A DNA stretch of 64,000 bases, taken from assembly GCA_000004985.1 (NCBI GenBank), contig GG738855.1; one strand, given 5' to 3'. The notes under the pieces were generated by a model. It saw only the letters and a list, made by a program, of their open reading frames with translations, was not told where the DNA came from and made no database searches. Position 1 is the first letter of the stretch; each line of letters begins with the position of its first letter. The translations under genes and the position numbers were made by a program. The stretch comes from Naegleria gruberi. Its lineage: Eukaryota. This document shows positions 4,598 through 48,732 of this stretch, piece after piece.

Positions 4598-6607
4598 ATG
4601 TCGGTTAGGACATCAATAACCGAGCCCAATTTCCATGACAATTTCATTACAACTCTAAATGATTCATCATCATCTTCAAGTCGTCCAGCCACAACAACAA
4701 GTATAGATTTATTCATGAGAGGAGAACCAATTCTTGTAGATTTGCTTTTACATCATGATGAGGATATTTGTCTGCAGGATATTGACGATCATCAGTCGGC
4801 GATGGATAAAGAAATGTCGACAATTACGAATAATCTTCCTCATCAACAACAACATATTATCGGTCAACAACACGAATTATCATCATCACCTGTTGTTGCT
4901 ATTACTTGTACTCCTCCACTACTAACTAATTTAGACATGACATTCAATTATGACAAAACTGATAATCAGCAGCAGCAACAAGAAGTAAATACAACTAATA
5001 GTAATAATATTGTATTTAATAATGATATAGTAATTGTGGAAGATTCTAATAGCAATAATAATAATAATAATAATAATCGAATGAACATGGTGAATATTGT
5101 TGATGGTAGTTCTATTATATTAAATAATACACCTCAACTCTTTATTGAAACAAAACAAGATAATTCTAAAGGGTTAGTTCTACCTTTAAATTTATCTAAT
5201 GATAATTCTCCAGTCAATTCAGAGATTTCATCGGCTGTGAGTGTGACCTCCTATGGGTCAAGTCTTCCATCGACTCCAAATAATTCCCATCAATCTTCAA
5301 GCTTTTTCAATTCATCAACAACAATGGTAACCAATGATGAAACTGATTGGGAAATTATTGTAAAGAATAGAAATGCTCAACAAATAGCACGTATGGCCTC
5401 TGCTACTGGTTTAGTATTTCATAATAATCTATCCTCCTCACCATCAACTACTTCATCTTTATCGTCTTCAAATCTATCAAATCAACATCATCACTGTGTT
5501 ACCACTCCAAAATTGGATACATCTTCTTTAAATGAAACATCATTCAGAAAGAACTTTATCACTCGACATAGTTCTGATCAGAGAATTGCAATCTCTAGTA
5601 ATAATAGTAGTGGTAGTACATGTAATGAAGAGTCCACATTTGGTACTGGGTCAAGCAAGCAGAGAAGCAAGACAAGTTTTTTGTGGGGAAGATCTTTAGA
5701 GAGGAAGAATTCTGCAAACAGCAATACTTGTATGCCTCCAATAGAGGATTCTAAGAATGCTCAACTCGATATTTCGGCCTCTTCAATAGAGAGTAGTGCC
5801 ACCAATGTTGCATCAGATGAGAGCTTTTTAGAGTTTTTACAGAGTGTAGATTGTCGAATGAATGTTATTTCGATAGAGTCAATTGATTCTGCCTCTACAC
5901 AAGACACATCATCCAAAGAGACTTTGAAAAAGTCCAAATTTTGGGATAGACTCAAGATTATCAAAAAGGCAATTAAGAAACAGCTTATGGAAGAAGAAAA
6001 ACCTAACAGCACCCAACAAACACTTCACACTCAACAACCATCTAAACACTCGAGAACCAATAGTATTACAAGTAATCCACATACACTTGATTTGGATTGT
6101 AAAAGTACATCATCTTCCTCTCTGACAAGCGTTAGTGATGAAGACAAGTATACGGTTGTTATTACTAAACCAGCAATAGTCTCTAATAGTGCAATTAGAT
6201 CTGCTGAGGATGAAATGAGACATTGTCTTAATGATCCAATTTGTTTACAATTATTTGATGAATTTTGTTGTCAGGAATGCTCTCAAGAGAATTTACTTCT
6301 TTGGAAGGAGCTCAATAAGGTCAAGACTAATTTCAAGAAACTTTCAGATAAGAGAAGAAGCAAAACCCTTCGAACCATTCACTCGAAATTCTTCTCTGAG
6401 AAGAATGAAAATTTCGATGTAAATGTTAGTGGTCGAACTAAAGTTCAAATAGAGGAACAAGCAAATAGCAAGAGAGTTAGTTTAGCATCTGGCGCACACG
6501 TTTTAAATAGCTTACAACGAGATTGTATCAACAATTTATGTGACAGCTTTTCGAGGTTTATTCTCACTGAGGATTACAAACTATGGAAACAAAACTTTGA
6601 TAGGTAA
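4598..6607 (+). CDS. Asn/Gln/Ser-rich protein with C-terminal RGS (regulator of G-protein signalling) domain
   Basis: 669-aa ORF. Motif LQLFDEFCCQECSQENLLLWKELNKVK fits the RGS core (F..F...E.S.ENL.FW). Long low-complexity N-terminus including an (AAT)n-encoded poly-Asn tract. Confidence 0.6.
   Translation: MSVRTSITEPNFHDNFITTLNDSSSSSSRPATTTSIDLFMRGEPILVDLLLHHDEDICLQDIDDHQSAMDKEMSTITNNLPHQQQHIIGQQHELSSSPVVAITCTPPLLTNLDMTFNYDKTDNQQQQQEVNTTNSNNIVFNNDIVIVEDSNSNNNNNNNNRMNMVNIVDGSSIILNNTPQLFIETKQDNSKGLVLPLNLSNDNSPVNSEISSAVSVTSYGSSLPSTPNNSHQSSSFFNSSTTMVTNDETDWEIIVKNRNAQQIARMASATGLVFHNNLSSSPSTTSSLSSSNLSNQHHHCVTTPKLDTSSLNETSFRKNFITRHSSDQRIAISSNNSSGSTCNEESTFGTGSSKQRSKTSFLWGRSLERKNSANSNTCMPPIEDSKNAQLDISASSIESSATNVASDESFLEFLQSVDCRMNVISIESIDSASTQDTSSKETLKKSKFWDRLKIIKKAIKKQLMEEEKPNSTQQTLHTQQPSKHSRTNSITSNPHTLDLDCKSTSSSSLTSVSDEDKYTVVITKPAIVSNSAIRSAEDEMRHCLNDPICLQLFDEFCCQECSQENLLLWKELNKVKTNFKKLSDKRRSKTLRTIHSKFFSEKNENFDVNVSGRTKVQIEEQANSKRVSLASGAHVLNSLQRDCINNLCDSFSRFILTEDYKLWKQNFDR
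5054..5077. repeat. (AAT)n microsatellite encoding poly-Asn inside a CDS
   Basis: Sequence aataataataataataataataat. Typical coding microsatellite of dictyostelid genomes. A similar tract lies at about 23390-23410. Confidence 0.8.
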
Positions 6608-20518: not shown

Positions 20519-22004
20519 TTACATGATAGTACAACAACCCTTTTTACCTCCACCTTCACAGTTGGCAAGCTTCTTTTCTAATTCCTCAATTCTAGCCTTC
20601 AGCTTCTTTTCGTTTTCTAAAAGCTCAGCAATCTTTTCTAACCTTGGATCTCCTCTAGAAACTCTGAGTTTGTTCTTAATTTGCTTGGCTCTATCAGAAA
20701 AGTAGAGAGTGCTCAAGGTCTCTTCACTATTTACATCTGCTGAAGAAACACATGATATCATTACACAAAATGCATTACCTCCAATGGAATCTTTCAATAA
20801 CCGAGTCAGGATTGAATTTCTGTATGGTACAAAGTTTGTTTTCTTCACAAGGGCATTAATGACATTACCCAAGTTGGATAAACTGAGATTGATATTTGCT
20901 CCTTCCTTCAACCGGTCTCCTGTAGCTTCTGTTGATGAGGCTCTTTCACTACCAGCAAGATCGACCAGTGAAATCTTGTTGGATCTCAAACTGAGACCAT
21001 CTTCATCACCTTTATCAACTTGATCCATGTAAATTGTCAGAACAGCGTGAGATCTTGAGGAGAATTGATTCATTTTGGTTTCGCCAACAGTTCTCCTACT
21101 AGCTCCTTCATCCAACAACTCGTTCAATTCCTCTTCACTTCCGATTGGCCTTTCAATGAGATTTGTAACAATAATTCCCTTCACCTTATCTTCTCTAACA
21201 TCATATTTTAACTTTTCAGTTCTATTGTGGAGAAGATCGTGAATATTTTCATTATAAATTTCAATATATGAAGCCTTAATGGTAATATCCGTTTTCTTTT
21301 GTTCCTTTCTCACATATTCAAAGAGCTCTCTCACAAAACGAGTCATTATTCCTTGTTGTTGTTGATCTCCTTTCACACCTTCCATTGTGTAGGTTTTTCC
21401 ACTTGATGTTTGACCGTATGCAAAGATACAAGCCTGAATTCAAATACAACCTTAATGAAAAGATTAGTCTTTAAAAACATACATTATATCCCAATATAAA
21501 TCTCTCCAAACACATTGCTCCTGTAGCTTTATAAATTTCAGTTTGAGCAGAAGTTTCATCAAAAACTCCATCAAAGAAAAATTCCTTATCTTCCTTATCC
21601 TTTCTCACCAGTTTGATTTTTCCTTCCGATTTGCCTATCGATAAGCAAGAACTACTCTTGAGAGATAATTCTCTCTGATTCAATGGTCTTGATCTCACCA
21701 CAACTTTAATATTAGTCTCGTCAACTGCTGACACCATCGTATTGATAGCTTCTAAAGCAACTTGTTGTGACTTTTCTTCCTCCTTCCTAGGCGAAACAAT
21801 AATGGTTGTGGTACCAGCACTCAATTTTGAATTATCCTTCTTTTCATTATTTGTTGATGAAATTGCCGATCCAGGAGCACTTCCTGCCTTCTTCTTCTCT
21901 ACTGCAGTGGTTGTAGCAGTAGCAGTGGAGGGACTCTTTGCTGCTTTAGGATTTTTGTTATTAGTATTAGCAGCAGGCGCATTTGTTCCTTTTGATGCAA
22001 CCAT
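20519..22004 (-). CDS. Kinesin motor protein (479 aa) with C-terminal CaaX-like motif CTIM
   Basis: Exons complement(21483..22004) and complement(20519..21433). Intron 21434..21482 is GTATGT...TTCAG. Motor motifs IKVVVRSRPLNQRE, P-loop GQTSSGKTYTM (spans the splice), switch I NQFSSRSHAVLTIY, switch II LVDLAGSER. Neck coiled coil follows. The protein ends ...GGGKKGCCTIM*. Confidence 0.8.
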
Positions 22005-24680: not shown

Positions 24681-25889
24681 ATGCCAAACACGCGCCACCA
24701 TCACGTAATTTCCAAATATTTATTTACTCACTTTGAACGGAGAGATCTTTCGTTATTGATGAATGGTTATGTAAATTATCAACAAGATGATCAGATAAAT
24801 ACTCTTCCGTATGTAGCATCCATTCCGATTGATATATCGGAAGATGAAGGGTTGATGGGAGGTAAAATTGGTACATTGGTTGGATTATTTATTTTGAGTG
24901 TTGTATTTGGTATATTGCCATATATTGTTCATCATTTATCTCAATTGGAAAGATTGAAAAAGTTAAAGAAGGCACTTCATATTGTTCAACTTATTTTCGG
25001 ATATTGTAATGCTATTGCTGCTGGTGCAATTTTGGGAAGTGGATTGACTCACTTGTTACCTGATAGTATTGAATGTTTTAATAATTATTTTGAATTGTAT
25101 AATCATCAGTTTGATAATTCAACATTGAGTTCAGTAGTTTTTGGTGATTCACCAACTACTAATGGTACATTTACTCCAATTTCGGATACAGTTGTTGATT
25201 ATCCTTGGTCAATGATGATTGCTGGTACTATTAGTTTGTTTTTGGTTGGTTTGGATAGAGTTTTCTCTGAACATTCACATGGATCTTCGAATAGTTATGG
25301 AGGACATTCTCACTCACATAAAGGAGAGGAAGACCATTTAATTGTAAATTCTGAGGAAAGACATGAAATGTACAGTGAATTGGAACATGAAGAAAATAAG
25401 GAACGTCACAAGTATTCCTTCCTTGTCAAATCATTGCTTTTTACATTTGCTATTTGTGTCCATTCAGTTTTTGAAGCATTTGCACTTGGGTTGGAGACAA
25501 ATACTGAATCATTTGTATCCTTGCTAGTTCCTATTGTAGCTCACAAGGGTTTCGAATCATTGACAACAGGATTCATTGTATTGAGATATACATTGTGTAA
25601 ATCATGGTTCCAGGTTCTTATTTTGATACAGGTTGCCATCTATGCATTGAGTACACCTATTGGAATGGGAATTGGTATGGCCATCAGCAGTGGCGATTTG
25701 TCCTTTTCTTACTATATGATTTCAGGTATTATTCAAAGTATTGCTTGTGGGTCTTTCCTTTTCATTGCTTGTTTCGAAATTATTCCAACAAGTTTGGAGG
25801 AAAATTTTGGATTGTGGGATAGAGCTTTGAAAATGTTCTTGATTTGTTTAGGATTTGGAGTCATGTGTATTTTGGCTGCCTTCTCATAA
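24681..25889 (+). CDS. ZIP (SLC39) family zinc/iron transporter
   Basis: Multiple TMs. His-rich loop HGSSNSYGGHSHSHKGEEDH. ZIP signature helices HSVFEAFALG and HKGFESLT. Confidence 0.8.
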   Translation: MPNTRHHHVISKYLFTHFERRDLSLLMNGYVNYQQDDQINTLPYVASIPIDISEDEGLMGGKIGTLVGLFILSVVFGILPYIVHHLSQLERLKKLKKALHIVQLIFGYCNAIAAGAILGSGLTHLLPDSIECFNNYFELYNHQFDNSTLSSVVFGDSPTTNGTFTPISDTVVDYPWSMMIAGTISLFLVGLDRVFSEHSHGSSNSYGGHSHSHKGEEDHLIVNSEERHEMYSELEHEENKERHKYSFLVKSLLFTFAICVHSVFEAFALGLETNTESFVSLLVPIVAHKGFESLTTGFIVLRYTLCKSWFQVLILIQVAIYALSTPIGMGIGMAISSGDLSFSYYMISGIIQSIACGSFLFIACFEIIPTSLEENFGLWDRALKMFLICLGFGVMCILAAFS

Positions 25890-25945: not shown

Positions 25946-28900
25946 TTATTGTTGTAACTGGTTTCGGATTGTGTTTGCTTCATAAGAAGAGATAATACTT
26001 CTTCCTCTAGTTTTCCTAGTTACTGCTTCCTCTTTTTGTTCGATACTTTGTGCAGAGGTCCTCATAAATTCATTCATTTCTTCATCGGTTGGCATTGGTT
26101 TCGTGTGGTGTTCATCATTCAGCAAGTAACATTTTGTCATTCCCTTTCCTTTCACTTCGATATTCCTCTCCTCAAAAACAAATCCCAAATCATGAACTCT
26201 CTCATAGGTTGATCTGGTTATCTGTATTCTTCCTGAAAGAGATGTTGATTCCATTCGAGAAGCTGTGTTAACTGCATCACCCCACAAATCGTAGGCAAAC
26301 TTTTTGGTTCCAATCACACCAGCCACAACTGACCCAGTATTGATACCAATGAATGTATCACCTCTCTTCAATCGTTGGGCAACTGATTCAGGTAAGATAT
26401 TCTTCAATAGATTTTCAGAGTGTTTCTTCTCGTCTTCCAACAGAGCTGCTGCCTTTTTTTCTGAGGTGATATCCTTTATGGTTAAAATAATTAGAACGCC
26501 CTTTCCTGATACCTTAACTGTGAAAAGATTGAGTTTTGTTGGGAATTTTGTTCCATTTTTTCTTAAACATTCGGATTCTAATGAATCATGACCTCCACTA
26601 TCATTTCCTGAAAACTCATTTACGAGGGCACTCACTGATTTTCTGACAGATTCTTTTGTTTTCCCTTCCTCGAATATGGAATAGAAGGAGGTTCCAAGGA
26701 TTTCCTGTGTTGCAAGACCAAGCATATTAAGGGCTGGTGTGTTGATTAGTTCCACTTCTCCTTCTGTATTGATGATTATTGAACCATCAACACTTGAATT
26801 AATTACAGAGCATACGCCCGAATAAGATCCTTGTCCTTCATCTGATTGCCTTTCTGATTTTAGACTAAACTTATTAGACAATGGATCTGAGAATAGATTG
26901 TAGAGTGCTAAATTCTTCAATCTCTCATTGTTTTCGAGAGTTTCAATAGGAATATAATTCAATAGCATCTTTGTGTAGTAATATTGATTAGAATTCGACC
27001 CCATAATTGAGAGAATCAATTTACAAAAAATTAAAGAAATACAAGTACCCAAAATAGTAAATAACAATACAGAAACATAACTGGATTTCTGAAGAAACTC
27101 TTGCAAATTCTTGCATAAATGATGCTAGTTTTAGAGAGAGAGGATATGACCTAGCTTGATTAGTGTAATGTTCAAAAAACAAGGTACTAATTTCTTGCAT
27201 TGTAAAGTTGGTTGACTGGTATTTGTAGAATTTCTTAGTTAACTCAGACACTTTGGATGAAGTTGAAACAAATTCAGACATCATATATTCGACACCAATA
27301 CAATAACTATAGTAATTTTGCACATTAAATGTAAAATTATTTGCTTGCAAATATTCAGTACAATTATCTGAAACTCCAAATTTCAATGTCTTGTCCATCG
27401 ATGGATAGATACCAACAAGAGGTGTATCGTATGCTAAATATTATGGAAATTATCAGTAATTAAATTGAGGTTGAAACTTACGAATATTAATATTACCAAA
27501 TATCAGATCCGTATAATTAGACGAAAGTCCATCAATTTGATCCAAAAGAATGTGGCTCAGCTCGTCAAATGTAGAACTAGTTCTTAAAAACGGATGGGCA
27601 ATGTTAGTAGCCCCAAAGTTGTTGGTATTTCCTAAACCATAAACGGATAAAAGTTCTGATAAGTAGTATCCACAAATTTGTACAAAATAAATTACTCTAG
27701 CTCCAGCTTGAATATTATAATAAGTTTTGAGTGCGCTTACTGCATTTCCATTAATTTCATTATAAAACATTCCCAAACAAAATGGGTTGACTAAAACCAA
27801 AACCATGACTGAAACTATGAGGGTGTACTTGGCTTTGGTAATTTTCGAAATCAAACTGGAATCAAGTGAAGAGTCAATAGATGATTGCTTGGAAAGTGAC
27901 TGATATATTCTAGCTATCTTGTCTCTTGGAGTCTCCTTCTTGATTGTTTTTACCAATCTTTTAAGGTAGTACTGTCTGTAAAGAACAGTAATAATGAAGC
28001 ACATAGCGATTGGCAACAATGCTAAACTACCAGCTACGAGATAGATTTGAAAATACGATAATAATGAAGTTGTGGATAATTGGCTAGAATCTACATAATT
28101 CGAACAAAATGCAGACAGAACATCAAATGCATTATCTCTGTTACTCCAATAATACATGAAACTATAGTCCTGTATAGAATTCATGAAAGTACCATTAATA
28201 ACAGACCTAACGAGCTGATCTCTTGTTGATTGAGAAATTGTTGTGGAGTTGGACAATAACAATAAATCATTGAGAGGAAAACTTTCTTGGATTCTTTCTA
28301 AGAAGCTTTTCAGATTATTGGTAAATTCATTGACTGATATTCTTCTTATTTGCACTGTACCTGAATAGTATCCATTGTCTCTAATCGTAGGAATTAATGC
28401 TGTGTGTTCTCCTGCACCGTAACTATTTATGAAATTAGCAAAAGAGCTCAATAAACTTACGCTGTATAGATAGGAGCATCAAAAACACCTTTTTGTGCAA
28501 GTAATATCAAATCGTGTAGAACATTCTTGTCATTTTCCATTCTATGAAGATAGTTTTGGATATATTCCTTTAGTAAGAGTTAGAGAATGTTATATTGGAG
28601 GGATACTACTTACCTGAAAGGTTTCTGTTGGGAGACTATCATATTCTGTCTTCCAATCACTTCCATAATTAATATAATAATTAATTGCACTTTGCATACT
28701 TCTGACATTTCTTATTACAGACATTCCAACTTCCTCAGTCAAACAAGCAGAATTCAAGTTTACAACACCAACTCTAATCGAAGATCCAATGTAAATAGCA
28801 AAAGAAGCGCCTCCTAAACCAACACTGAAAATGATCACAAAAATTAAAATAAACAGACTGTTTCTCAAACTTTCGTTTGGTTTGTTCCTAATTCCATTCC

Positions 28901-30833
28901 TGAACAATAGGTCCTTGTGCATTTCATGTTCTTCTTCTTCGTCTACCTCACTTACTGGTGCTTCAGAGAATAAATCAGATTCGGTAGGATCGAATGAAGT
29001 TGGTACTACTTGTGACTCTTTTCTAGGCCTTTTAGCACTCATGTACAAACCTCTTGCATCCTTTTCCAATCGATTGGCTTCTTCATAGAGGGTTTCAGAT
29101 TTCACCTTGTCAAACTGAAAAAGCTCAACGTACGTGGCATACAACCTGAGAATCTGTTTACTTCTCTTACTTCCCATTAATTCCTCAAACATTTGATTAC
29201 ATTCCACTGTAATCTCTGCAATCTTATTTGCAATCTTTTCAATGGTCGAGTATTGTGGTGATTCTTCAATAAGTTCCTTCCAAAAGTCTCTGTGGAGAGA
29301 CAGAAGCATATCCTGATTGTATTTCAATTCTTTGATGGTTCCATCGTCACCCAAATCAGAACTATTAATTGATGAGATATTTAGCCTATGCTCTTGCAAT
29401 TCTAATGATTTGTATAGGGAAATAGTTCTCATAAAAATATTCTTTGAATGTCTAACAATATGGTAGAGTATATCAATGGATTTGTCCAAATTGATGCTCT
29501 CATCTTCTTCTGCATGAGCTAACAGCATGGAAATGTAAAATAAACATTTAGGATCTCTGATATTCTTATTTATGAGCGTCTTGGCAGTAAGTAAATATAA
29601 TTCCCTTTCTGTCACATCTCCAGCAACAATTGCATGCTTTATTCTATGGTATTGACTAAAATAGAAGCTTAATTTAGAGAAATATCCTCTTCCATGATTC
29701 TCTTGCATAATATTTGTACAATTTACATCAACGCATGCAAGAATTGACTTTCTGTCAGATGATTTCAGATCAATCCCACTGAGTAGGGTTTTTCTGACTG
29801 AGTTGATTATCAAGCGCTGGTACAATTCCATCAAGATTATGAAAATAACAAAGAAAATGATTGCCAAGCCAAATGTCAAAGGCAGGCCAATTATTTGTAA
29901 ATAGAAATTATTTCCCTTCAGTATAGTAGAAACCAGTGAACCAATAGAAACGCCTGTTCTAGCACCTGCAACAGCAAATAATATTGAATTATCAACAGTA
30001 TTAAAACATGTCTTGAAATAGAATGTAACTGAAGCAAATATCAAGCTCATTACAATATTCAATGAATCTGAGATGATCTTGTATTCCAATGGAATTGAAA
30101 ATATGAGTAATACACCCATAAAGTTTACAATGTCAAGCGTCATAATATGAATGGGATAAGATGAGCAAAAAGGAACCCTATCATAAGTATTCATGTCACT
30201 AACAATCAATCTATTCAGGATTATTAATGCAAAGAGTATTGCCAAACATCCAATAGCTAATACAATTACTACCATGTTTCCAGAATCAATACAAGATACT
30301 TGATTGTACCTGTACAATAGTCGCTCCAATGTAGTTTCATTAATGAGATTCGAACAATTATAAAATCCCACCAGTATGTTTACGAAAAGAGGAGAAAGTA
30401 CAAGAAGTAAATTACCAAATATCCATAATCCTATTCTTACATATCTAATATTATCGAGTGCTTTCGTAACTACCCACACAGAGGCAATGCAAAGAACCAA
30501 ATTCATCATGACAAACATCATAACACCCAAACCTATTCCAATACTTGCATAATATCCCCACATGTCCACCAGCAATGTAATGGGGAAATTGATTATTGAA
30601 TATATTATATTCGAGTATAACTCTCCTACCTCTCCATTTCTAATCGAAGGAATAAACACAGAAATATACAGAAATAAGGAATGAAACAATAGAGTTGATA
30701 GATACCATTTCCATCCACGCTTTGAACCCTGTATCTTTACGGAAAGGAATGTGGAGAGAGTATTTTGGAGAGTCTTATTATTGAGGTTGGCTCTAATCAA
30801 ATTCTGACTAATCGAACTGCCAATATCAGTCAT
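25946..30833 (-). CDS. Large polytopic membrane protein with PAS domain and a truncated class III nucleotidyl-cyclase homology domain (multi-exon; one unresolved frame break)
   Basis: Minus-strand exons: complement(28614..30833) (~8 TM block plus cytoplasmic region plus TM), complement(28461..28567), complement(27482..28422), and complement(~27107..27433) which continues in another frame as ORF complement(25946..27106). Introns are GTAAGT...AG at 28568..28613, 28423..28460 and 27434..27481. The C-terminal part has TM, PAS (GSIIINTEGEVELINTPALNMLGLATQEILGTSFYSIFEEG...ILTIKDITSEKK) and cyclase motifs LLKNILPESVAQRLKRGDT|FIGINTGSVVAGVIGTKKFAYDLWGDAVNTASRMES. The ~90-aa segment with the FSDIVGFT/IGDAYM metal-binding aspartates is absent. 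The frame discontinuity at 27021..27106 has no plausible intron. Confidence 0.5.
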
Positions 30834-31328: not shown

Positions 31329-34300
31329 TTATGCAACATTCTTTGCCTTCTTCATTCTGGCTCGTATGAAAAGTGCAATCACAACAGCAAGAAGAACACC
31401 AGCAACGCACACGACAACTACTCCACCAACTGATGAGGCTACTACAGCAATTAACACTGTGTTGTCGTTCACTAGGATTGGTTCTGAGTTTTCTGGTTCT
31501 CTTCCCTTTGTGTTTGCCTTTTTATAGTTTTGGTCAATTACTGCAAAGGAAGTCAAGTGACTAGTTCTGCAACTCATTGAAAAAGTAACAATATTTGAGG
31601 AGGGAGAAAATTTCAAATCATTAATTGTCGTTTCTATGCCGTCTGTCTTCCACTCCTTGTCTGAATTATCAAAAAACATGCAGGTGAAATTTAATAACGC
31701 ATTTGTATCTTTGGCAGTTGACAAATTGGAGAAGTACAATTCGATAGGTTCTTCCAGGTCAACTATTGGAATTTTCTCATCATTGATATTGAACATGGAA
31801 ATTGTTACCACTGAACTAATTGCATAAGCTTCCTCACTTGAAGGACCACTTGAAGAAGAAACTGAGCTAATCACCTTTACCACCTCAGTTGAATTAAATC
31901 CTCTTTCATTGATAAGATAATCTTTCACTGCTGTAGGAAAATTGACTGTTACTGAACTTCCAAACTTTGTGAACGTGATATTCTGGTTATTAACCTCTTT
32001 TAACGAATAAATCAATTCTTTCGTCTCAATATTTCCATTTTGTCCACCACATTTGAAGGTGTTATTGACCAATTCTAAAGTTCCAATACAGTAAGGAGTG
32101 GTACAATTTCTACCAATCCATCCTTCCTTACAAATGCAATTATCAGGTCCAATACATGTTCCTTGATTACAAACTCTTTGATCAATCGAAGGAATTCCAA
32201 AACAAATTGGAACAGAACAGTCCGAACCAGTATAATTGGCATTTCAGAGACAAGTATTTAATCCAACACACGAACCATGTGAAGAACAAACTGCCTCATT
32301 ATTTTCTGGTATTTCATTACATGAAACCATTTGACATTCCGAGCCAAAATACCCAACCTCACATTTACAAATGTTGAATGATTGGCATGAGCCCTTTCCT
32401 CTGCAAACTGATGAAGAATTACTTGATTTTCCATAGCAAGATGTGAAATTACATTGAGGACCTGAATAACCTTCCTTACAAAGACACGAATCCTTATTGA
32501 AACAAGTTCCGTGTGAAGAGCAAGCAGTCAACTCATTCTTTCCAATACCAAAACAATAGAACTGATCACATTGGTTACCATAATAACCTAATTTACAAGT
32601 GCAGGAATTAGGCGAAGAGCAAATTCCATTTGATGAACAAGTAGAAACGTTTCTATTAGAAAGTCCAAAACAAATTGGAATGTCACATGCAACACCAGTG
32701 AAATTTGCATTACATTCACAAGTATTGACATTGACACATGAGCCATTTCTAAAATTACAAACTGAAGAGTCAGTGGATGGGATTGAAAAACAAAGAGGAA
32801 GTTGACATGAATTTCCTGTAAAATTTGGATCACATTTGCAAGTGTTCAATTCTGTACAATTTCCATTTCCAGAACAAACTGAACTATTCGAATTCTTCAA
32901 ACCAAAACAATAGAAATTTTCACAATTATTACCAAAATAACCTGAATTGCAGTCACAAGTATTGAACCCGCTGCATTTTCCTCTTCCTGAGCAAACATTA
33001 GTTTCATTATTTCGAATTCCATAACAGGAAGTCAACTCACAATTAGATCCTTCATAGAACTCATTACAAATACACTTATTAGGTGAAACACACGTTCCTT
33101 TCCCACTACAAACTTTAGAATTGATGGCAACAATACCATTACACATTTGAATATCACATTCTGGTCCTCCATATCTATTCGAAAGTGAACAGTTACATGT
33201 ATTATATCCTACACATGTTCCATTTCTATTACAAACGTTTGGATCATTAGAAAGTTTCCCAAAACATACTGGAAAGCAAGGAGAAGGTGTTCCATCATCA
33301 TTACAAACTAATCTATGAAATTTCTTAATGGAAGTTCCATCAATGAATAGAAATTGATTATTATCTATCATTGTAATACCCATTATGCTTTTTAGAGTTG
33401 GAATAGTTCCATCTGGAAGAATAGCTTTTCCTCCAATACCAACAAGTGTTGAGATTATTCCATTGTCAGGAGAAACCATACGAATCCTTGAATTGTCTGT
33501 ATCTGCCACATATAAAGTGCCATCTGGAGCCAAAACTGCCGAATGTGCTCTATTTATCGATGCACTATATAATTGTTAAAAGAAACATGTATTCGATTTA
33601 GACTAAAGTGATGTTAACTTACCTTTTAGCTGGACCGCCATCTCCACTAAATGAAAATGATCCACTCCCATCTCCAACCAATGTTGAGATAATATCTGTC
33701 GCTTTGCTAACAACTCGTATAGCTCCACTGAAAGTGTCAGCAATCACCAAATCATCTTTTTCACTCAATGAAATTCCATAACTGAAATCGATTTGAGTTT
33801 GAGAGCCAACTACTTGACCATCCCCAGAATAACCTCTTGTTCCACCAATATAGGTATATATAAAACCTGTTGTTGGTTTGATATTTCTAATTCTGGCATT
33901 ATTGGTATCAAGAATGTAGACTAAACCAGAGGTATTACTGTAAGCAACAGAGTAAGGGGTGTCAAGTTTAGCTGCAATGGCTAGCTCTCCATCTCCAGTA
34001 AATCCTGCTGATCCAGTTCCTGCAATAGTTGAAATAAACCCATTAGAAACCTTTCGAATTCTATTGTTATAAGAATCTGCAATATAAACATCACCTTTGA
34101 ATGGATCTACAGAAACACCTCTTGGGAAATACAACTTTGCATTGATTGCCAGCACTCCATCTCCAGAAAACCCTCCACTTCCAGTTCCGGCTATGGTTGT
34201 AATCGTACCATTCAATTAATCTTTCGAATTTTGTGAGCATTTGCATCTGCAATATATAATCTCACCATTAGCATAGGCAATAGCATGTGGAAATAAAAAT

Positions 34301-36141: not shown

Positions 36142-39043
36142 ATGAATCGCACCAACACGCTTTCGTTTCTTCTTCTTCTGACATTATCCATTCTTCTTTT
36201 AACACTTTCGCGTATCCATGCAGCCATCAAAACTTCATCAATTCTTGCCTTTGGCTATAATCATAGATGGTAAATTCGGTCAGACACCAAATTTTGGTCA
36301 AAAATTACCTGTCAGACATTTGACTCTCGAACAGATATTGTTCAACTCTACTGAATCCATCAAAAAAGCAAAGATATCATCTAGTAACTTACCAGATAGT
36401 CTTCTTCCAGTGTTATCGCATGTGAGTGGAAGTAAACAAGGAGGAAATTTTGTGTTTCATGTCAAGTATATGAATAATGGTCAATTTGTGAATCAGACAG
36501 TGTTTTCATGTGGGAAAATGGGAAAGTTAACACCTCTAGTACCTATTTCGTCAACGCCGATGCCATCTTATGGATTTGTGAGTGAAGGAGTTTCGAATTA
36601 TGGAGACGAAAGATTGGTCAATCAAGAAATTATTAGTTTAAATTGCAAATATTCTTGTATTGCTGTAACTAATCAAGGATTATTATTCATCAAGTGGCAC
36701 AATGAAACTAGTTGGAAATTAGTAGAGTTGCCATCAACCTTCACAAATCCATCAAATTATGAAAATGTCAATTTGAGAATTTCACAAGCAGTCATTGGAG
36801 TTTCCTTAACTGAAGGATCTAACATTGAAGAAACCTTCCTATTACTGACTGATTCTGGATTTGTTTTGAGTTTTGGATATTGTAATAGTGGTTTGAGAGG
36901 TGATTCAACAAGTGCAACAGATTCTCTTTCGTCTAATTCATTCTATACCTTTACTACACTTTCAAATATTAGCTCCATTGGAGTTGGACCAGGTATTGGC
37001 TATGCCATCAATAGCACTGGTCAATTACACGTGTGGGGAAACAATCAAAATGGAATTCTAGGCGATCCTGACCCAAATCTCATTCTTTCAACTCCAAAAC
37101 ATTTGGAATTTAATTGTTTCATGAAGAAATTGTCATTTGGTGAGAGTTTTTGTTTATATTTGTGTCAGGATGGAAGAGTTTTTGGTAATGGACAAGATGC
37201 TGAAGGTGAAATATCAGCAGCACCTGGATCAATTATTTACACTCCTGTGGAAATTACTAGCTCGTTATCTGCTACATTTAATAGTGATATGATTATTGAC
37301 ATTTCGACTAGTGAAAAAACCAGTTTGGCTCTCACATCAACTGGTAAGATAGCAACATGGGGAGATGATAGTCAGCTCGCATTTGGAAGAGAAGGAAATG
37401 GTGGATACACAATTCCAGCAACATTTAGTTCTCTAAATATTGTAAAGGCATTTTTTGTTTACAATATTGGAATTGCAATTACAAATACCAATGAAACTTA
37501 TTATTGGGGATCTAATAGTGCTGGAGAAGCATGTTTGGGTGATTTGTGGTTTGCTGCCAAGCCAACTGTCATTCCAACATTGTCAGATGTTTCACAAACA
37601 CATGTCAATGAAATTTATTTAAGAGCTGCTTGTGGAATGATGCTATCCACAGATGGTATCACCAGTTCTAATATCACATACTGGGGGAAATGTAGTTCTG
37701 GATTGGATGGTCAATATGTTGATCCAACAGTCGCAGTTTCTGCCACAACCTTTGACAACTCACTTTTTAATAATGAAATTCTCAAAAAGTTTGCTCTGTT
37801 TAGAGGAACAGCTGTTGTTAACTCTATTTCTGGGAACAGTTATGGATGGGGAGAAGGTAGAGATTATCAATTGGGAGATGATTCAAGTCATCCTGTTCCA
37901 TTAGCACTATCAGTGAATGTTACTGATATTTTTAGCTCTAATCAATTTACAATTTTGGTTAAAAACGATGGTGGTGTTTATGGATTGGGGACTGTATCTA
38001 GCTCTGGAGCATTTGGTTCGTCCGTGCAAATGTTAACCACACTCACAAAATTGGACACTGATTACGTGACAAGTGATGGAAGCTCTGTAATTCAAGTTAA
38101 AGCTCTAGAAGGTATATCATATCTATTGACATCAAGTGGAAAGGTCTATGGTGCTGGATCCAATGCAAATCAACTCATTATTAACAATTCCACAACCAAA
38201 TTCGAAAACTTTGTAAGAATTAGTGGAGATGATTTACCAGATAATCACAGAATTCGAAAGATTATTGTCTTTCCAAATTCTCCACTAATATTTATTACCT
38301 ATGAAGGAGATGCTTATTATGTCTATCAAGGTATTCACAAGTTTCAGCTCCCAAATTCAAACGATTCATTTGTAATTCATGCATCTTCAAATTATTTGAA
38401 TTTCTATGTTATTACAAAGAAAGGAAATGTTTACGCTATGGGAACAACTAATGAATTTATGGAAATTTCTCAAAATCCAATGGTTTCAAGTTTGAATAAC
38501 ATGACATTGTATGCAACAAAGGAATCTCTTGGTGGTGTGCCTTACTTTATTTCCCCTGAAACCAATTTAGCCATTTTGGCCATCTCTAATGGATGGACAT
38601 GTAATGGAACAGCCTCTACCAGTGATTCTGTTTGTAATGGACATGGAGCATGTGTCGATCAGGATGTATGTGCCTGTAAAGAAAATTATGATGGATCCTA
38701 TTGTGAAAAGTTCACTTGTGGCGGAATTTCCAATGAGGATACAACCACTGTTTGTTCTGGAACAGGAAGTTGCACATCATTTGACACATGTGTTTGTAAA
38801 CAAGGATATAGTGGAGCAAATTGTGAAATTCCTTCTTGCTTTGGAGTAGCAAGTAGCAACACTGGAATTGTATGTAGTGGAAGAGGTCAATGTATGGGAT
38901 TAGATAAATGCAGTTGCATGACTGGATATTTTGGATCCAAGTGCGAATACAAGGCATGTTATTTTGAAAGTATAAGCGCCGGTACAGGAGCTATTCTATC
39001 AATCAAGAACAAGCTTTGTAGAGATATCAATAAATATCTTTAA
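36142..39043 (+). CDS. Secreted RCC1-repeat (beta-propeller) protein with C-terminal tenascin-type EGF repeats; N-terminal exon junction unresolved
   Basis: Signal peptide MNRTNTLSFLLLLTLSILLLTLS sits in ORF 36007..36273. The body is in ORF 36218..39043, so the frame switch near 36200-36265 implies a small intron or indel. RCC1-like repeats: GQLHVWGNNQNGILGD, GRVFGNGQDAEGEI, GKIATWGDDSQLAFG, YYWGSNSAGEACLGD, YGWGEGRDYQLGDD. C-terminal EGF modules CNGHGACVDQDVCACKENYDGSYCE and others. Confidence 0.55.
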
Positions 39044-39649: not shown

Positions 39650-41252
39650 TTGACAACAACTCCTTTTGAAATGACACAAGACCCACAACCAACATCTCAG
39701 CCAACTACTATCTCTACAAGTAATGACAAGCTCCATCCACCATCAACATCAACAACACAACTCCATCATCCAACAGAGAGCCATACTAAAAAAGATGCAG
39801 ATAACGAATCCAATAAATCATCTACTAAGAGCAGTTTCAGAAGAAAGCAAAAACAACGAGGCTGCTTATGTTTCCGAGGAGGGAAAGCAATTAAAGTGAA
39901 CACTTGTTGTGGTGTTTTGGAATTGTCTTGGATCAAAGTATTGGCCATTGTTGGTATGGCTCTTAATTCCTTCACATTTCTTGTATTATTGGCCTTGTTA
40001 ATTTTCAGTCAAAACTCAAATGCAGCCACTAATATTGATCTCTTAGCAATAAGAAGTGATTTATATCTGTATACAGCTTGGGTGGATGCTTATACACTTG
40101 TTGCTGCCTATTCCCAAAATAAGACCTATTTGAACTATTACTACAATTACCGTGATACCCTTAACACCTTGAAAGATGAACTTGTTTCAAAATTACCCTC
40201 CACTCTAGTGTCTCAACTCAATTCAACAGAAAGTTATCAATATTCTACATATTTAGAAGCTGCTGATACCCTGGCTGTGAATATGATGGAGAATGGAAAC
40301 TATTCGGGTGCTGTTTCTGTACTCACATCTGGATTCTACTATGCTACAAAGTTAAAATATAGAAATTTGCTGGATATTATTCTCAAATATATTCTGGATT
40401 CGCAAACAGAGGCAGAAAATTTATCGGATGCAGCTGTCATTTCTTCACTGGTCATTATAATGTGTAGCTGTTGCAGTGACAGTCCCTGCCATTCTGTTCA
40501 TCTTTGCATTCGCTATCAATAGAGAAGCATTAATGGCACAAAGATATAAAAAGGCAAGAGCTGTTGAATTGATGGATACAATGAGTAATGAAAAATTGAG
40601 AGCTCTCTTCCAAAAACACTGTATTAAGGAATTGAATAATGAAAACTTTGAATTTTTGGAAAAAGTTAATGAATATAAGAGATTGGTAGAACATCAAATT
40701 GAGTTGGTTCAATTATTGAGTGATGGAGATTCAATCCATTCCAATGAATTAACTCAATCTAGTTCCAATGTCTCAAGTAGTCAAATAAGTGCTGCCGAAG
40801 AACCCACTACAGCCAATACAAACACCAACAATTCATCAGATTCTAAAAAGAAGAAGCATACAATGACATCAGTCAAGTCCATTTCTGATTTGGAAAATGA
40901 GTTGGAAGAAATTGAAGGAAAAAAGTTTGCACTTGCCACTGAAATTTACAATAACTTCCTCGATTTGAAAGGACCAAAGACTGTCAACACCACCAAATCC
41001 CATGCTGATAAGGTAAAGATTGAATTGGAGTATTTCAAGAGCAAGCAAATTCATTCCTTGTCCGATGATTTGTTCACATCTTTGGAGAGTGAAATTTCCA
41101 TAGTCCTTCTCGATTCACATTATAGATTTAAAGAATCGATGGAATTTTTGAAGGAAATGAGAGTGAAGAGAATTAAAGATATCAATGAAAAGAAGAAGAT
41201 TAAATCCAATCAACACCACGATCAACACCATCATCACAATAATGGACATTAA
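39650..41252 (+). CDS. Two-TM membrane protein with cytoplasmic RGS domain (apparent +1 frameshift near 40468)
   Basis: ORFs 39650..40522 and 40476..41252 overlap in different frames. Reading through the overlap gives a continuous TM helix (SSLVIIM)CVAVAVTVPAILFIFAFAINREALMAQRYKK. It is followed by an RGS core LRALFQKHCIKELNNENFEFLEKVNEYKRL. A first TM VLAIVGMALNSFTFLVLLALLIF follows an S/T-rich N-terminus. Confidence 0.5.
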
Positions 41253-46515: not shown

Positions 46516-48732
46516 CATTATCGGCAATATTCATCCTACTTTTTTACACTATTCTATTCGCAAGGAATTTACAGTTCTTTTACTTGTTTTCACATTTCAT
46601 CAACCGATGCAAAAGTTTGCTCTTCTCGAGGGTCATGCCTTTCTACCAACAATTGCACATGTTCTACAGGTTTCTACGGAAGTAATTGTCAGTGGAGTGA
46701 TGATCCAATACTAAACGAACCTACTTTGGATTTATTTGGTTTAGGAATTGGAATTGTTAGACGAAATGTTTCGAATCCAACCTATGATTTGATGATTTCT
46801 GCAACTAAATTAACTTTTCTTGATTCTAAATTGAGAGAATTGATGGGATGTTCATTGGAAAGTGAAAATTGTTATTCTGTAATTGAATTTAAATGGTCAA
46901 TTAGTATGAATGCAATTAGTTTGGATTCTTCTAATGGATTTGTGATGGCAAATTTATCCCAAGTTGATGTATTGACATTTTCTCCAGTCATTCAATTTCA
47001 AAGTAGCAAAGGTTTGATTTCTGGCAGTCAGTTGATTACTTCTATTGAACTAAAGACGAAATATTCTAACGTTAACATGAGTACTAAAGGATGTACTCTA
47101 ANAAGGAACATCACATTGGAAATTGAAAATACAGTAACTTGTCTCTGTTCACACACAACCATGTTCTCTACCTTTATTGAACATAACAGTACATTTGCTG
47201 TCAAAGTCAAACAACAGCTGTCAACGCTATATTATGCTCAAATAGCTTTTGGTGTATTCTATTTTATCATTTCCTTAATAATATTAATTCTATTATTTGC
47301 TTTTAGAAAGGAACAACCAATTTCAAGTAGATTAGCAACTCCATTTATGGGAATGATAGCCCTATTGGTAGAAAGTTGTTTAATTTACATTACTCAGAGA
47401 GGAATTTTAGTGAATCAACTGAAATCTAGTAATAATCAAATGTGGGAGAGTGGAGATAATGATTCCAATATTATTGCAAATATTGTTACAATTTTTGTAA
47501 ACTCTTTAAATTTAACAGCAATATTTTGCTATGTTATTCAAGTGGTTAGATTTGAATTGATGAAATTCATGTACAAATTAATTCACAAGACGAAAGGAAA
47601 TGAGTCTAAAAGTGATATAGTATTGAAATCTATTAGAATATCAACATCAACAAGTTTATTCTTACTCTTGACAACTTTATTTATGAGTTTTAATCTGGTT
47701 TATTGGACAATTTGGGTTGTTTTGAGACGAATTAATGTAATTGAGCCTTCAACTTACACTTACATTGTTTCCATTTCGTATACTGTCATAATATTCTTCT
47801 TGAGTTTAGTAATTGCAACTGTATTAGTATTCGATTTTATTATAACAATTAAAGAAAAGAAAGAAGAGAAGAAGAATGAGCCCACAGATTCAACAGTGAA
47901 AGAAAATCTGGTAAAGAAATCAATCAAGATGAAGAATTCACTCTCAAAGGTTTATGATTTTTTCATTAGTTTAGATGAGCCACTCTATTTCAGAGTCGAA
48001 ATGATTCTCTACCTAATATGTTTCGTATTTCTAATAGTGAATCAAGTGATTGGACTCATTGGATTACCATATCGATTCATAGACGAGGAAAATTACAAGA
48101 CAGCTCTCCAATATGATGTAATTTCATTTATATTTGAAGTTTTATACGTTTTCACCTATATTCTAGTATTTGGTGGATATGCTTTGTTGATCCTACTCAT
48201 TTACAAAGTAAAGATTTGGAGAAAATTTTCAAAGAATGGAAAATCAAAGCAGGATGATGGAATGTTGAAGAATAAGGAACTTTTACTTGTGATTAGGAAT
48301 GAGGAATCGTACGAATCATTTGAAAAGTTTTGTGAAAAGGAATTTTCCTTAGAGAATCTTTATTTACATTCAATATTGGAAAAACATTCAAAAATAGTGA
48401 ATGGAGAGACATTTGAAGGGTTATCAACTCTACTTAATCAAATATTTGAAGGATTCATCCAATCAGGAGCAACAAATGAAGTGAATATTCCAAACAGTTG
48501 TAGAACAAAGATTGTCAACCTCCACAAAAAATATGGTTTTGAAAAGAAGGATTCAGATTTAAAGAATGTTGATTTAGAAGAAGTGAGACAGGCATTCTTT
48601 TCATTAGTTCAACAAGTATTTGTCAATCTTGGTGACACCTTCTCTCGATATTCTCTAACAACTGAATGGAAAGTTTTCAAAAAGGCAATTGAATTGAAAG
48701 AACACATTACGGAGAAAGCAAACTTGTATTAG
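46516..48732 (+). CDS. EGF - GPS-like - 7TM receptor with C-terminal cytoplasmic RGS domain (adhesion-GPCR-like 7TM-RGS)
   Basis: Main ORF 46726..48732 (668 aa; ambiguous base n at 47102). Seven hydrophobic helices: YAQIAFGVFYFIISLIILILLFAF; FMGMIALLVESCLIYIT; IIANIVTIFVNSLNLTAIFCYVIQVV; STSLFLLLTTLFMSFNLVYWTIWVVL; YIVSISYTVIIFFLSLVIATVLVF; MILYLICFVFLIVNQVIGLIGL; VISFIFEVLYVFTYILVFGGYALLILLIY. GPS-like TCLCSHTTMFSTF lies ~25 aa before TM1. C-terminal RGS core ESYESFEKFCEKEFSLENLYLHSILE. The same frame is open upstream to ~46516 and encodes an EGF module VCSSRGSCLSTNNCTCSTGFYGSNCQ. A signal-peptide-like MHSLSAIFILLFYTILFA lies in a neighbouring frame (46509...), so the 5' end is unresolved. 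Confidence 0.6.
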   Translation, partial: HYRQYSSYFFTLFYSQGIYSSFTCFHISSTDAKVCSSRGSCLSTNNCTCSTGFYGSNCQWSDDPILNEPTLDLFGLGIGIVRRNVSNPTYDLMISATKLTFLDSKLRELMGCSLESENCYSVIEFKWSISMNAISLDSSNGFVMANLSQVDVLTFSPVIQFQSSKGLISGSQLITSIELKTKYSNVNMSTKGCTLXRNITLEIENTVTCLCSHTTMFSTFIEHNSTFAVKVKQQLSTLYYAQIAFGVFYFIISLIILILLFAFRKEQPISSRLATPFMGMIALLVESCLIYITQRGILVNQLKSSNNQMWESGDNDSNIIANIVTIFVNSLNLTAIFCYVIQVVRFELMKFMYKLIHKTKGNESKSDIVLKSIRISTSTSLFLLLTTLFMSFNLVYWTIWVVLRRINVIEPSTYTYIVSISYTVIIFFLSLVIATVLVFDFIITIKEKKEEKKNEPTDSTVKENLVKKSIKMKNSLSKVYDFFISLDEPLYFRVEMILYLICFVFLIVNQVIGLIGLPYRFIDEENYKTALQYDVISFIFEVLYVFTYILVFGGYALLILLIYKVKIWRKFSKNGKSKQDDGMLKNKELLLVIRNEESYESFEKFCEKEFSLENLYLHSILEKHSKIVNGETFEGLSTLLNQIFEGFIQSGATNEVNIPNSCRTKIVNLHKKYGFEKKDSDLKNVDLEEVRQAFFSLVQQVFVNLGDTFSRYSLTTEWKVFKKAIELKEHITEKANLY

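What the first reader, a model, noticed from the sequence alone, without database searches (positions are those of the whole stretch)
25946..30833. Polytopic membrane protein with PAS domain and a cyclase-homology domain missing its metal-binding half
The C-terminal region aligns to class III adenylyl/guanylyl cyclase catalytic domains at both edges. LLKNILPESVAQRLKRGDT matches the domain start, and FIGINTGSVVAGVIG...FAYDLWGDAVNTASRMES is the transition-state Asn/Arg region. However, the DNA runs directly from GDT to FIG with no intron signal. The ~90 residues carrying the FSDIVGFT and IGDAYM aspartates are therefore absent. Upstream are a PAS domain, a TM helix, a two-TM-bracketed extracellular domain and an N-terminal ~8-TM block, spliced through three GTAAGT..AG introns. 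This would be a pseudo-cyclase (regulatory or dimerisation partner) or a decaying gene. There is also a frame discontinuity at 27021-27106 with no plausible intron.
Basis: partly seen in the sequence, partly recalled or inferred. Interest (0 to 1): 0.6.

Follow-up and report, generated by a model that had tools for sequence, protein, structure and literature searches.

The report
Broken Naegleria membrane PAS-cyclase gene
This is a recently damaged copy of an ordinary Naegleria gruberi membrane sensor-cyclase gene: a roughly 0.4 kb deletion removed the metal-binding half of its cyclase domain and a one-base insertion breaks the reading frame, so it is most likely a dying gene rather than a new kind of pseudo-enzyme.

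Summary
The minus-strand gene at 30833..25946 encodes a polytopic membrane protein with a PAS domain. Its class III cyclase domain matches only positions 104-182 of 183 in Pfam PF00211.

The window is the Naegleria gruberi NEG-M reference. The spliced model equals XP_002680149.1 (NAEGRDRAFT_64855, 1226 aa) residue for residue, including its frameshifted tail.

A metagenome contig from a sister strain (L001, 98.3% identical) has a continuous reading frame where the window carries one extra C (27083/27084). Past window 26347 it continues into ...FFSDMVGFT...IGDAYFAVG plus a fourth intron, none of which is in the window.

About 25 relatives from Naegleria and Willaertia carry a full cyclase domain, and none shares this gap.

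The retained half scores as well as any intact relative, and dN/dS against the sister strain is 0.24. The lesions are therefore very recent.

Best reading: a newly inactivated allele or pseudogene of a known family, the "membrane bound adenylate/guanylate cyclase with PAS domain". It is not a conserved pseudo-cyclase. Interest is low.

The parts
25946..30833 (-). Whole former gene: Naegleria gruberi NAEGRDRAFT_64855 plus its unannotated out-of-frame 3' continuation (last TM helix, PAS, signalling helix, half cyclase domain, C-terminal tail).
   Evidence: P0191 (XP_002680149.1) is identical to the spliced model up to the frameshift-induced stop. L001 is collinear across the frameshift.
28614..30833 (-). 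Exon 1 (740 codons): N-terminal block of about 7 TM segments (about 29829-30707), cytosolic helical region with TPR_TmcB (about 29055-29315), a TM segment at residues 660-678, and the start of ectodomain 1.
   Evidence: PF25474, E 1.1e-12; hydropathy.
28568..28613 (-). Intron 1 (46 nt, GTAAGT...AAAG).
   Evidence: The position is conserved in the N. fowleri-type homologue L002.
28461..28567 (-). Exon 2 (107 nt).
28423..28460 (-). Intron 2 (38 nt, GTAAGT...ATAG). It is not the 14-nt gap that a naive reading suggests.
   Evidence: It carries two substitutions relative to L001.
27482..28422 (-). Exon 3: rest of ectodomain 1, TM segment (about 27984-28040), short cytosolic loop, TM segment (about 27765-27821), and the start of ectodomain 2.
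27434..27481 (-). Intron 3 (48 nt, GTAAGT...TTAG).
   Evidence: The position is conserved in L002.
27083..27084 (-). Frameshift site. The window has CC where the sister strain has a single C (ATCCAG against ATCAG). This +1 insertion lies just before the last TM helix.
   Evidence: alignment. P0003, P0004 and P0006 read ...EF(A/V)(R/K).S.(E/D)... continuously into the TM helix.
27021..27023 (-). Premature stop codon reached in the shifted frame. It is the end of the annotated 1226-aa product.
26456..26809 (-). PAS domain (PAS_9), intact but out of frame with the upstream exons.
   Evidence: E 6e-15. AlphaFold2 pLDDT is above 90.
26348..26452 (-). Signalling helix and the first residues of the cyclase domain (EKKAAALLEDEKKHSENLLKNILPESVAQRLKRGDTFI).
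   Evidence: HNOBA C-terminus, weak; CHD HMM positions 2-25; aligns to AC8 residues 942-966.
26346..26347 (-). Deletion junction (TTCATTG|GTATCAAT). About 0.4 kb is missing, comprising CHD HMM positions 26-126 and a 52-nt intron.
   Evidence: L001 positions 2369-2636 have no counterpart in the window.
26117..26350 (-). Remnant C-terminal half of the class III cyclase domain (IGINTG...YDLWGDAVNTASRMES...KGKG). It keeps the substrate Asp and the transition-state Asn and Arg.
   Evidence: (PF00211 positions 104-182), and (121 bits, the top score in the family).
25946..26116 (-). C-terminal tail and the TAA stop of the former full-length ORF.

Best explanation
The locus is a recently inactivated copy (a null allele or young pseudogene) of a Naegleria-type membrane sensor adenylyl/guanylyl cyclase, in the N. 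gruberi NEG-M reference genome.

**The intact protein, as seen in relatives, has this layout:**
- a block of about 7 TM segments
- a cytosolic TPR_TmcB region
- two TM-bracketed helical ectodomains
- a cytosolic PAS domain
- a signalling helix
- a homodimerising class III cyclase domain with the Lys/Asp (ATP-type) specificity pair

**Two lesions are shown here.**
1. A genomic deletion of about 0.4 kb, from just after ...GDTFI to just before (I)GINTG. It removed the two metal-binding Asp motifs (FFSDMVGFT and IGDAYF), the specificity Lys and an intron. I infer it removed strands beta1-beta3 and helices alpha1-alpha3 of the fold.
2. A +1 C insertion 736 nt upstream. It shifts the frame before the last TM helix and ends translation at codon 1226.

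**Inferred.** The gene no longer makes cAMP or cGMP. At most it yields a 1226-residue output-less membrane protein. The events are very recent, possibly confined to NEG-M or its near lineage, and possibly heterozygous.
For: - **Identity of the window.** It is the public N. gruberi sequence. P0191 (XP_002680149.1, 1226 aa) matches the spliced model exactly, including the shifted tail ...SSEIQLCFCIVIYYFGYLYFFNFL.
- **Sister strain.** Contig L001 (run ERR1078381) is 98.3% identical over window 28715..26347. It has only three 1-nt indels: two in introns, and the third is the coding C. It then continues for 268 nt that are absent from the window, encoding AEALADVSVFFSDMVGFT...IGDAYFAVG plus a GTAAGT...GATAG intron.
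- **No second copy.** The missing half is not elsewhere in the window.
- **Relatives.** About 25 relatives from N. gruberi, N. fowleri, N. lovaniensis and Willaertia have CHD HMM coverage 1(2)-203. None has the 26-126 gap. Pfam shows TPR_TmcB + PAS_9 + Guanylate_cyc 3-182/183 in P0195 and P0205.
- **Recency.** dN/dS is 0.24 against L001 (18 synonymous, 16 nonsynonymous differences), and about the same before and after the frameshift. There are no nonsynonymous changes among the 3 differences in the first 250 codons against L004. The remnant half-domain scores 121 bits, the highest in the family.
- **Sequencing method.** The reference was Sanger-sequenced, and Naegleria is described as a heterozygous diploid (PMC9928731).
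- **Structure model.** AlphaFold2 models the PAS domain at pLDDT above 90, but leaves residues 218-240 (IGINTGSVVAGVIGTKKFAYDLW, normally the beta4-beta5 hairpin) unstructured at pLDDT 33-42.
Against: - No reads were available, so neither lesion is verified at read level.
- A single-base insertion could be a sequencing error.
- dN/dS shows no relaxation of constraint, and the remnant is perfectly conserved. That fits a very recent loss, but equally fits a gene that is intact in reality, or a tail that is still selected.
- The deletion keeps the reading frame. That has a chance of about 1 in 3, but it is also what a functional variant would need.
- L001 ends inside exon 5, so the 3' breakpoint and the intactness of the sister allele downstream were not seen.
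Confidence: 0.72

Rival explanations
1. Assembly or sequencing artefact: in the living NEG-M strain the gene is an intact PAS-cyclase. On this reading the extra C, the 0.4 kb gap or both are errors of the reference assembly, or represent only a collapsed minor haplotype.
For: - Purifying-selection signature on both sides of the frameshift.
- The remnant half-domain is the best-scoring in the family.
- The sister strain is intact at both sites.
- The insertion is a single base.
Against: - The reference is a Sanger assembly.
- Other long ORFs in the window (up to 1331 codons) are unbroken, so indel errors are rare here.
- A clean, in-frame 0.4 kb loss with no detectable flanking repeat is not a typical collapse.
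- Two independent lesions in one gene are more easily explained by real decay.
Confidence: 0.13
2. Functional derivative. Two versions are possible:
- The 1226-residue membrane/ectodomain part persists as an output-less receptor or scaffold, like TmcB-type proteins that lack a cyclase.
- If the frameshift is an error, the full protein acts as a catalytically dead pseudo-cyclase that pairs with or titrates an intact paralogue.
For: - The N-terminal part is under purifying selection.
- The deletion is in frame and keeps the substrate Asp and the transition-state Asn and Arg, which are the residues a C2-like partner contributes.
- Some family members appear to lack a cyclase domain in their public models.
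Against: - The gap is unique among about 25 relatives with a full CHD, and the sister strain lacks it. There is therefore no evidence that it has been retained over time.
- Half of the beta-alpha-beta-beta-alpha-beta core is gone, not just the catalytic residues. AlphaFold2 leaves the junction hairpin disordered.
- Known C2-like or pseudo-cyclase domains keep the complete fold (established knowledge of mammalian AC C1/C2 and sGC).
- Most cyclase-less family models are fragments or split gene models, for example C9374_012435/012436.
- Selection measured over dS of about 0.04 mostly predates the lesions.
Confidence: 0.1
3. Hidden exon or alternative splicing supplies the missing half, or the frame is restored by an unrecognised intron at 27021-27106.
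For: The family does have introns inside the cyclase domain: after GDAYFAVG in L001, and after FFSDM in L002.
Against: - tblastn with intact relatives finds no copy of the missing half anywhere in the 64 kb window.
- GDTFI and GINTG are adjacent with no intervening DNA.
- Enumerating GT..AG pairs at the frameshift gives no GTAAGT-type donor. It gives only a 10-nt candidate, or candidates that would delete conserved coding sequence.
- The public model found no such intron.
Confidence: 0.02

Closest known systems
Naegleria 'membrane bound adenylate/guanylate cyclase with PAS domain', e.g. N. gruberi EFC42187.1/XP_002674931.1. The closest N. fowleri homologue is FDP41_009091 (XP_044557556.1, 1605 aa).
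   Same: Same overall architecture:
- N-terminal polytopic block
- TPR_TmcB
- TM-bracketed ectodomains
- PAS_9
- signalling helix
- class III cyclase domain

Introns 1 and 3 sit at the same positions.
   Different: The window copy lacks CHD positions 26-126 and carries a frameshift. The relatives have a complete CHD (Pfam 3-182/183). Sequence identity is only about 33% in the N-terminal part and about 45% in the PAS region.
Dictyostelium TmcB/TmcC (tiny macrocysts proteins), via Pfam PF25474 TPR_TmcB.
   Same: The cytosolic helical repeat region matches PF25474 above the curated threshold (48 bits against 27). A Tetrahymena 'PAS domain S-box protein' is reached through the same region.
   Different: Only this roughly 90-residue region is shared. 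No dictyostelid protein was identified among the hits I looked up. The function of TmcB was not examined here.
C2-type catalytic-domain halves of heterodimeric class III cyclases (mammalian AC C2, sGC subunits), the usual meaning of a 'pseudo-symmetric' or degenerate cyclase partner.
   Same: The remnant retains the residues that a C2-like subunit contributes: Asp of YDLWG, and Asn and Arg of NTASR. It aligns to AC8 C2 residues 1088-1160 and AC2 C2 residues 129-209.
   Different: C2-type domains keep the whole fold of about 190 residues. Here the first half of the fold, about 100-120 residues, is physically absent.
Cyanobacterial PAS/GAF-linked class III adenylyl cyclases (Oscillatoria, Microcoleus and Spirulina hits).
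   Same: PAS + signalling helix + CHD module, with 60-70% identity over the retained CHD half.
   Different: They are soluble or differently anchored bacterial proteins, with a complete CHD and no TmcB-like membrane module.

Membership tests
Class III nucleotidyl cyclase catalytic domain (PF00211), catalytically competent | Complete domain of about 180-200 residues | tested here: not met
   Only Pfam positions 104-182 of 183 match. The own CHD HMM hits positions 2-25 and 127-203 only.
Class III nucleotidyl cyclase catalytic domain (PF00211), catalytically competent | Two metal-binding aspartates (F-x-D-I/M-x-G-F-T and I-G-D-x-Y motifs) | tested here: not met
   Both motifs are absent from the window. 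They are present in L001 (FFSDMVGFT, IGDAYF), L002 and P0005.
Class III nucleotidyl cyclase catalytic domain (PF00211), catalytically competent | Substrate-specifying pair (Lys...Asp for ATP) | tested here: not met
   The Asp of YDLWG is present. The Lys of EKIKTIGD lies in the deleted part. The residue assignment rests on established AC C2 numbering (K938/D1018) and was not re-derived here.
Class III nucleotidyl cyclase catalytic domain (PF00211), catalytically competent | Transition-state Asn and Arg (N-x-A-S-R) | tested here: met
   AVNTASRMES is retained and aligns to solved adenylyl cyclases.
Naegleria/Willaertia TmcB-like membrane PAS-cyclases | N-terminal polytopic block plus TPR_TmcB region homologous to the family | tested here: met
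   Exon 1 finds 68 homologues in 1.84 billion representatives. All that carry names are Naegleria or Willaertia, apart from one Tetrahymena protein. PF25474 E 1.1e-12.
Naegleria/Willaertia TmcB-like membrane PAS-cyclases | TM-bracketed ectodomains followed by cytosolic PAS and a signalling helix | tested here: met
   Hydropathy, PAS_9, and collinearity with P0004, P0005 and P0006. This holds only after removing the extra C.
Naegleria/Willaertia TmcB-like membrane PAS-cyclases | Single continuous ORF ending in a full cyclase domain | tested here: not met
   Frameshift at 27083/84 with a stop at 27021-27023. The annotated product ends at residue 1226. The CHD is half deleted.
Pseudogene / null allele | Disabling lesions relative to a close intact homologue | tested here: met
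   A +1 insertion and a deletion of about 0.4 kb relative to the 98.3%-identical L001.
Pseudogene / null allele | Relaxed selective constraint (dN/dS near 1) | tested here: not met
   dN/dS is 0.24, and the remnant is fully conserved. This is compatible only with a very recent loss. Only 34 substitutions were available, so power is low.
Pseudogene / null allele | Lesions real in the organism, with no functional transcript or protein | not testable with these tools
   No reads or RNA-seq were accessible. JGI metagenome scans for both junction flanks found nothing.
Conserved pseudo-cyclase subfamily | The same degenerate domain retained in orthologues or paralogues | tested here: not met
   No relative shows the 26-126 gap, and the sister strain has the intact first half.

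The most novel reading that the evidence does not exclude
The truncation could be adaptive rather than decay. After the cyclase core was lost, the 1226-residue polytopic/ectodomain module of NAEGRDRAFT_64855 might be kept as an output-less receptor or decoy. Alternatively, with the frameshift bypassed or erroneous, it might be kept as a half-domain dominant-negative that modulates paralogous PAS-cyclases. That would be an example of a sensor cyclase being converted into a non-enzymatic regulator within a strain-level timescale.
Probability: 0.07. Interest if true: 0.4.

Novelty: new member of a known kind. Interest (0 to 1): 0.13.

Why it matters
The main value is for annotation.
- The public N. 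gruberi protein XP_002680149.1 is the stump of a PAS-cyclase. About 1.1 kb of unannotated PAS and half-cyclase coding sequence lies downstream of it.
- Counts of Naegleria cyclases and comparative analyses should treat this locus as a disabled family member.
- It is a dated example of turnover in a large, lineage-specific sensor-cyclase family, with dS of about 0.04 to an intact sister allele.
- It does not reveal a new mechanism.

Tried and rejected
1. **10-nt tandem duplication as the cause of the frameshift.** I first attributed it to the near-duplication GCAAGAATTT/GCAAGAGTTT and built a model on that basis. I rejected it because L001 keeps both copies and differs only by one C further downstream, and P0004 and P0006 support that frame.
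2. **14-nt intron 2.** Rejected in favour of the 38-nt GTAAGT..ATAG intron, which matches the public model.
3. **Full-length protein query.** It gave almost nothing, because the word index was swamped.
4. **Query with the missing-half peptide.** It returned only 3 hits and no extension of L001.
5. **Exact-protein look-ups.** Look-ups of neighbouring ORFs, of P0191 and of the ATG-started PAS ORF found nothing on record.
6. **JGI metagenome scans.** Two scans with 24-25-mers flanking the deletion junction found nothing. No second natural copy of either allele was obtained, and the 3' breakpoint could not be read.
7. **Literature searches.** Searches for PRJEB11402 and for TmcB were uninformative.
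8. **AlphaFold2 model of the PAS + remnant ORF.** It is suggestive only, and I did not run a fold search on it.
Full report
**What is there.**

The finding lies on the minus strand of an AT-rich (about 34% GC), intron-bearing eukaryotic sequence. Four ORF blocks are joined by three short GTAAGT...AG introns at 28613-28568, 28460-28423 and 27481-27434.

Pfam finds three things:
- TPR_TmcB (PF25474) in exon 1.
- PAS_9 in the last ORF.
- A Guanylate_cyc match restricted to profile positions 104-182 of 183. It is preceded by a weak HNOBA C-terminal match, which marks the signalling helix.

The domain start (LLKNILPESVAQRLKRGDTFI) abuts the second half (GINTGSVVAGVIG...YDLWGDAVNTASRMES) with no DNA in between.

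Hydropathy gives about 7 TM segments in residues 43-335, then TM segments at about 660, 904, 977 and 1211. That makes two TM-bracketed ectodomains of about 215 residues each, followed by the cytosolic PAS and cyclase module.

**Whose gene it is.**

An exhaustive HMMER search with exon 1 found only 68 homologues among 1.84 billion representatives. Cluster look-ups show the named ones are from Naegleria gruberi, N. fowleri, N. lovaniensis and Willaertia magna. A Tetrahymena PAS protein is reached only through the TPR_TmcB part.

One cluster member is P0191: N. gruberi XP_002680149.1 / EFC47405.1 / NAEGRDRAFT_64855, 1226 aa. It is identical to my spliced model over its full length, including the tail ...SSEIQLCFCIVIYYFGYLYFFNFL. 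This has three consequences:
- The window is the N. gruberi NEG-M reference. That genome was Sanger-sequenced, is 40.9 Mb at 35% GC, and Naegleria is described as a heterozygous diploid (PMC9928731).
- The public model confirms the three introns.
- The public model stops at the frame discontinuity. The last TM helix, the PAS domain and the cyclase remnant (27004..25946) are left unannotated.

**The two lesions.**

The best hit of the C-terminal ORF was P0003, which sits on ENA metagenome contig L001 (run ERR1078381).

L001 aligns to window 28715..26347 at 98.3% identity with three 1-nt indels. Two are in introns. The third is in coding sequence: the window reads ATCCAG where L001 reads ATCAG, at 27083/84. 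In L001 the ORF runs straight through (...FMQEFARVSSEISYVSVLLFTILG...), as it does in the more distant P0004 and P0006. The window therefore carries a +1 insertion, and the shifted frame stops at 27023-27021. No credible intron can repair this.

At window 26347 the similarity ends. L001 continues for 268 nt encoding AEALADVSVFFSDMVGFTKISSGLPPVDLVRMLNTVINGFDDLTEKFQLEKIKTIGDAYFAVG, then a 52-nt GTAAGT...GATAG intron, then GVGNTQSDH.... None of this occurs anywhere in the 64 kb window.

Aligned with the N. fowleri-type homologue (L002) and a N. gruberi paralogue (P0005), the window lacks about 110-128 residues, from just after TFI to just before (I/V)GINTG. The genomic loss is thus about 0.4 kb and includes an intron. 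The junction TTCATTG|GTATCAAT is compatible with ATTG microhomology. That is an inference, because the 3' side of the intact allele was not recovered.

**Is the half-domain a conserved feature?**

No. I built a 203-position CHD HMM from 74 complete domains. It hits the window at positions 2-25 and 127-203 only.
- About 25 family members cover positions 1(2)-203.
- A handful stop early at the end of their gene model, which looks like unmodelled introns.
- None shares the 26-126 gap.

Pfam confirms TPR_TmcB + PAS_9 + Guanylate_cyc 3-182/183 in N. fowleri FDP41_009091 and N. gruberi NAEGRDRAFT_72081.

Against solved structures, the signalling helix aligns to AC8 residues 942-966 and the remnant to 1088-1160. 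It also aligns to AC2-C2 residues 129-209 and to 105-182 of a 204-residue bacterial CHD. The first half of the fold is therefore missing. By established knowledge of class III cyclases, that half contains strands beta1-beta3, helices alpha1-alpha3, both metal-binding Asp residues and the specificity Lys. The remnant keeps the specificity Asp and the transition-state Asn and Arg.

An AlphaFold2 model of the PAS + remnant ORF gives pLDDT above 90 for the PAS domain. It leaves residues 218-240 (the would-be beta4-beta5 hairpin at the junction) unstructured at pLDDT 33-42. This is suggestive, not decisive.

**How old are the lesions?**

- Window against L001: 18 synonymous and 16 nonsynonymous differences, dS 0.039, dN/dS 0.24. 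The ratio is similar before and after the frameshift.
- L004 is a contig from the same run and covers the 5' end. It is 99.2% identical, with three synonymous changes and no nonsynonymous ones.
- The retained C-terminal half of the CHD scores 121 bits against a 78-position sub-HMM, the highest of all family members.

There is thus no detectable decay. The lesions are very recent on the scale of the 1.7% divergence from the sister strain. Alternatively, one or both are not real in the organism.

**Interpretation.**

The most economical reading is a newly disabled allele or young pseudogene of a known Naegleria family. That family is already annotated in N. gruberi as "membrane bound adenylate/guanylate cyclase with PAS domain", and cyclases are known to be greatly expanded in the genus, with at least 81 (PMC9928731).

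As the sequence stands, translation ends at residue 1226 and the PAS/half-CHD tail is not made. Even with the frame repaired, the protein could not bind metal-ATP and has lost half of the catalytic fold.

The rivals are:
- A reference-assembly artefact. This cannot be excluded without reads, but it is unlikely for a Sanger assembly whose other long ORFs in the window are intact.
- A retained non-enzymatic function. There is no conservation evidence for this.
- A hidden exon. This is excluded within the window.

**Verdict.**

The "decaying gene" alternative is supported and the "pseudo-cyclase partner" alternative is not. This is an ordinary, if neatly documented, case of gene loss in an expanded sensor family, and an annotation correction for XP_002680149.1.

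Noticed in passing
window 54306-57091 (+): Two long ORFs overlap in different frames on the same strand. One (54306-56186) carries RVT_1 reverse transcriptase (E 4e-26) plus a weak Dam-like N6-adenine methyltransferase match. The other (54344-57091, 915 aa) has no Pfam hit. Local GC rises to 0.40. The layout recalls DIRS-like retroelements (from memory, not tested).
   Followed up: partly
window 4598-6607 (+), 39650-41252 (+), 46726-48732 (+): Three RGS-domain genes lie in one 64 kb window. The middle one is split into two overlapping ORFs (39650-40522 and 40476-41252), so it contains either an intron or another frameshift.
   Followed up: no
L001 2556-2607 versus L002 11038-11147: Intron positions inside the cyclase domain differ between lineages. 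The N. gruberi-type allele has one after GDAYFAVG. The N. fowleri-type homologue has one after FFSDM, and it also lacks the window's intron 2. This indicates intron turnover within the family.
   Followed up: partly
P0024 (N. gruberi, 459 aa), P0165 (N. gruberi EFC42187.1): Other N. gruberi models also show odd cyclase domains. P0024 jumps from the start of a PAS-like segment straight to ...NIRIGLHTGSVVAGV (second half only). P0165 lacks CHD HMM positions 41-60. These could be gene-model errors at introns or further damaged copies.
   Followed up: no
P0130/P0014 (N. lovaniensis C9374_012435/012436); P0218/P0217 (N. fowleri FDP41_007428/007427): Adjacent locus tags carry the membrane+PAS part and the cyclase part separately. 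This suggests that public annotations split single PAS-cyclase genes at an intron inside the cyclase domain.
   Followed up: no
window 31329-34215 (-) and 36218-39043 (+): The gene upstream of the focal gene's 5' end encodes GPS, teneurin-type EGF and NHL repeats. Another nearby gene combines an RCC1-like domain with teneurin-type EGF repeats. The convergent neighbour at the 3' end (24681-25889, +) is a ZIP zinc transporter, with only 57 nt between the two stop codons.
   Followed up: partly
window 20519-22004 (-): A kinesin motor domain is split over two ORFs (21471-22004 and 20519-21385), presumably by an intron.
   Followed up: no
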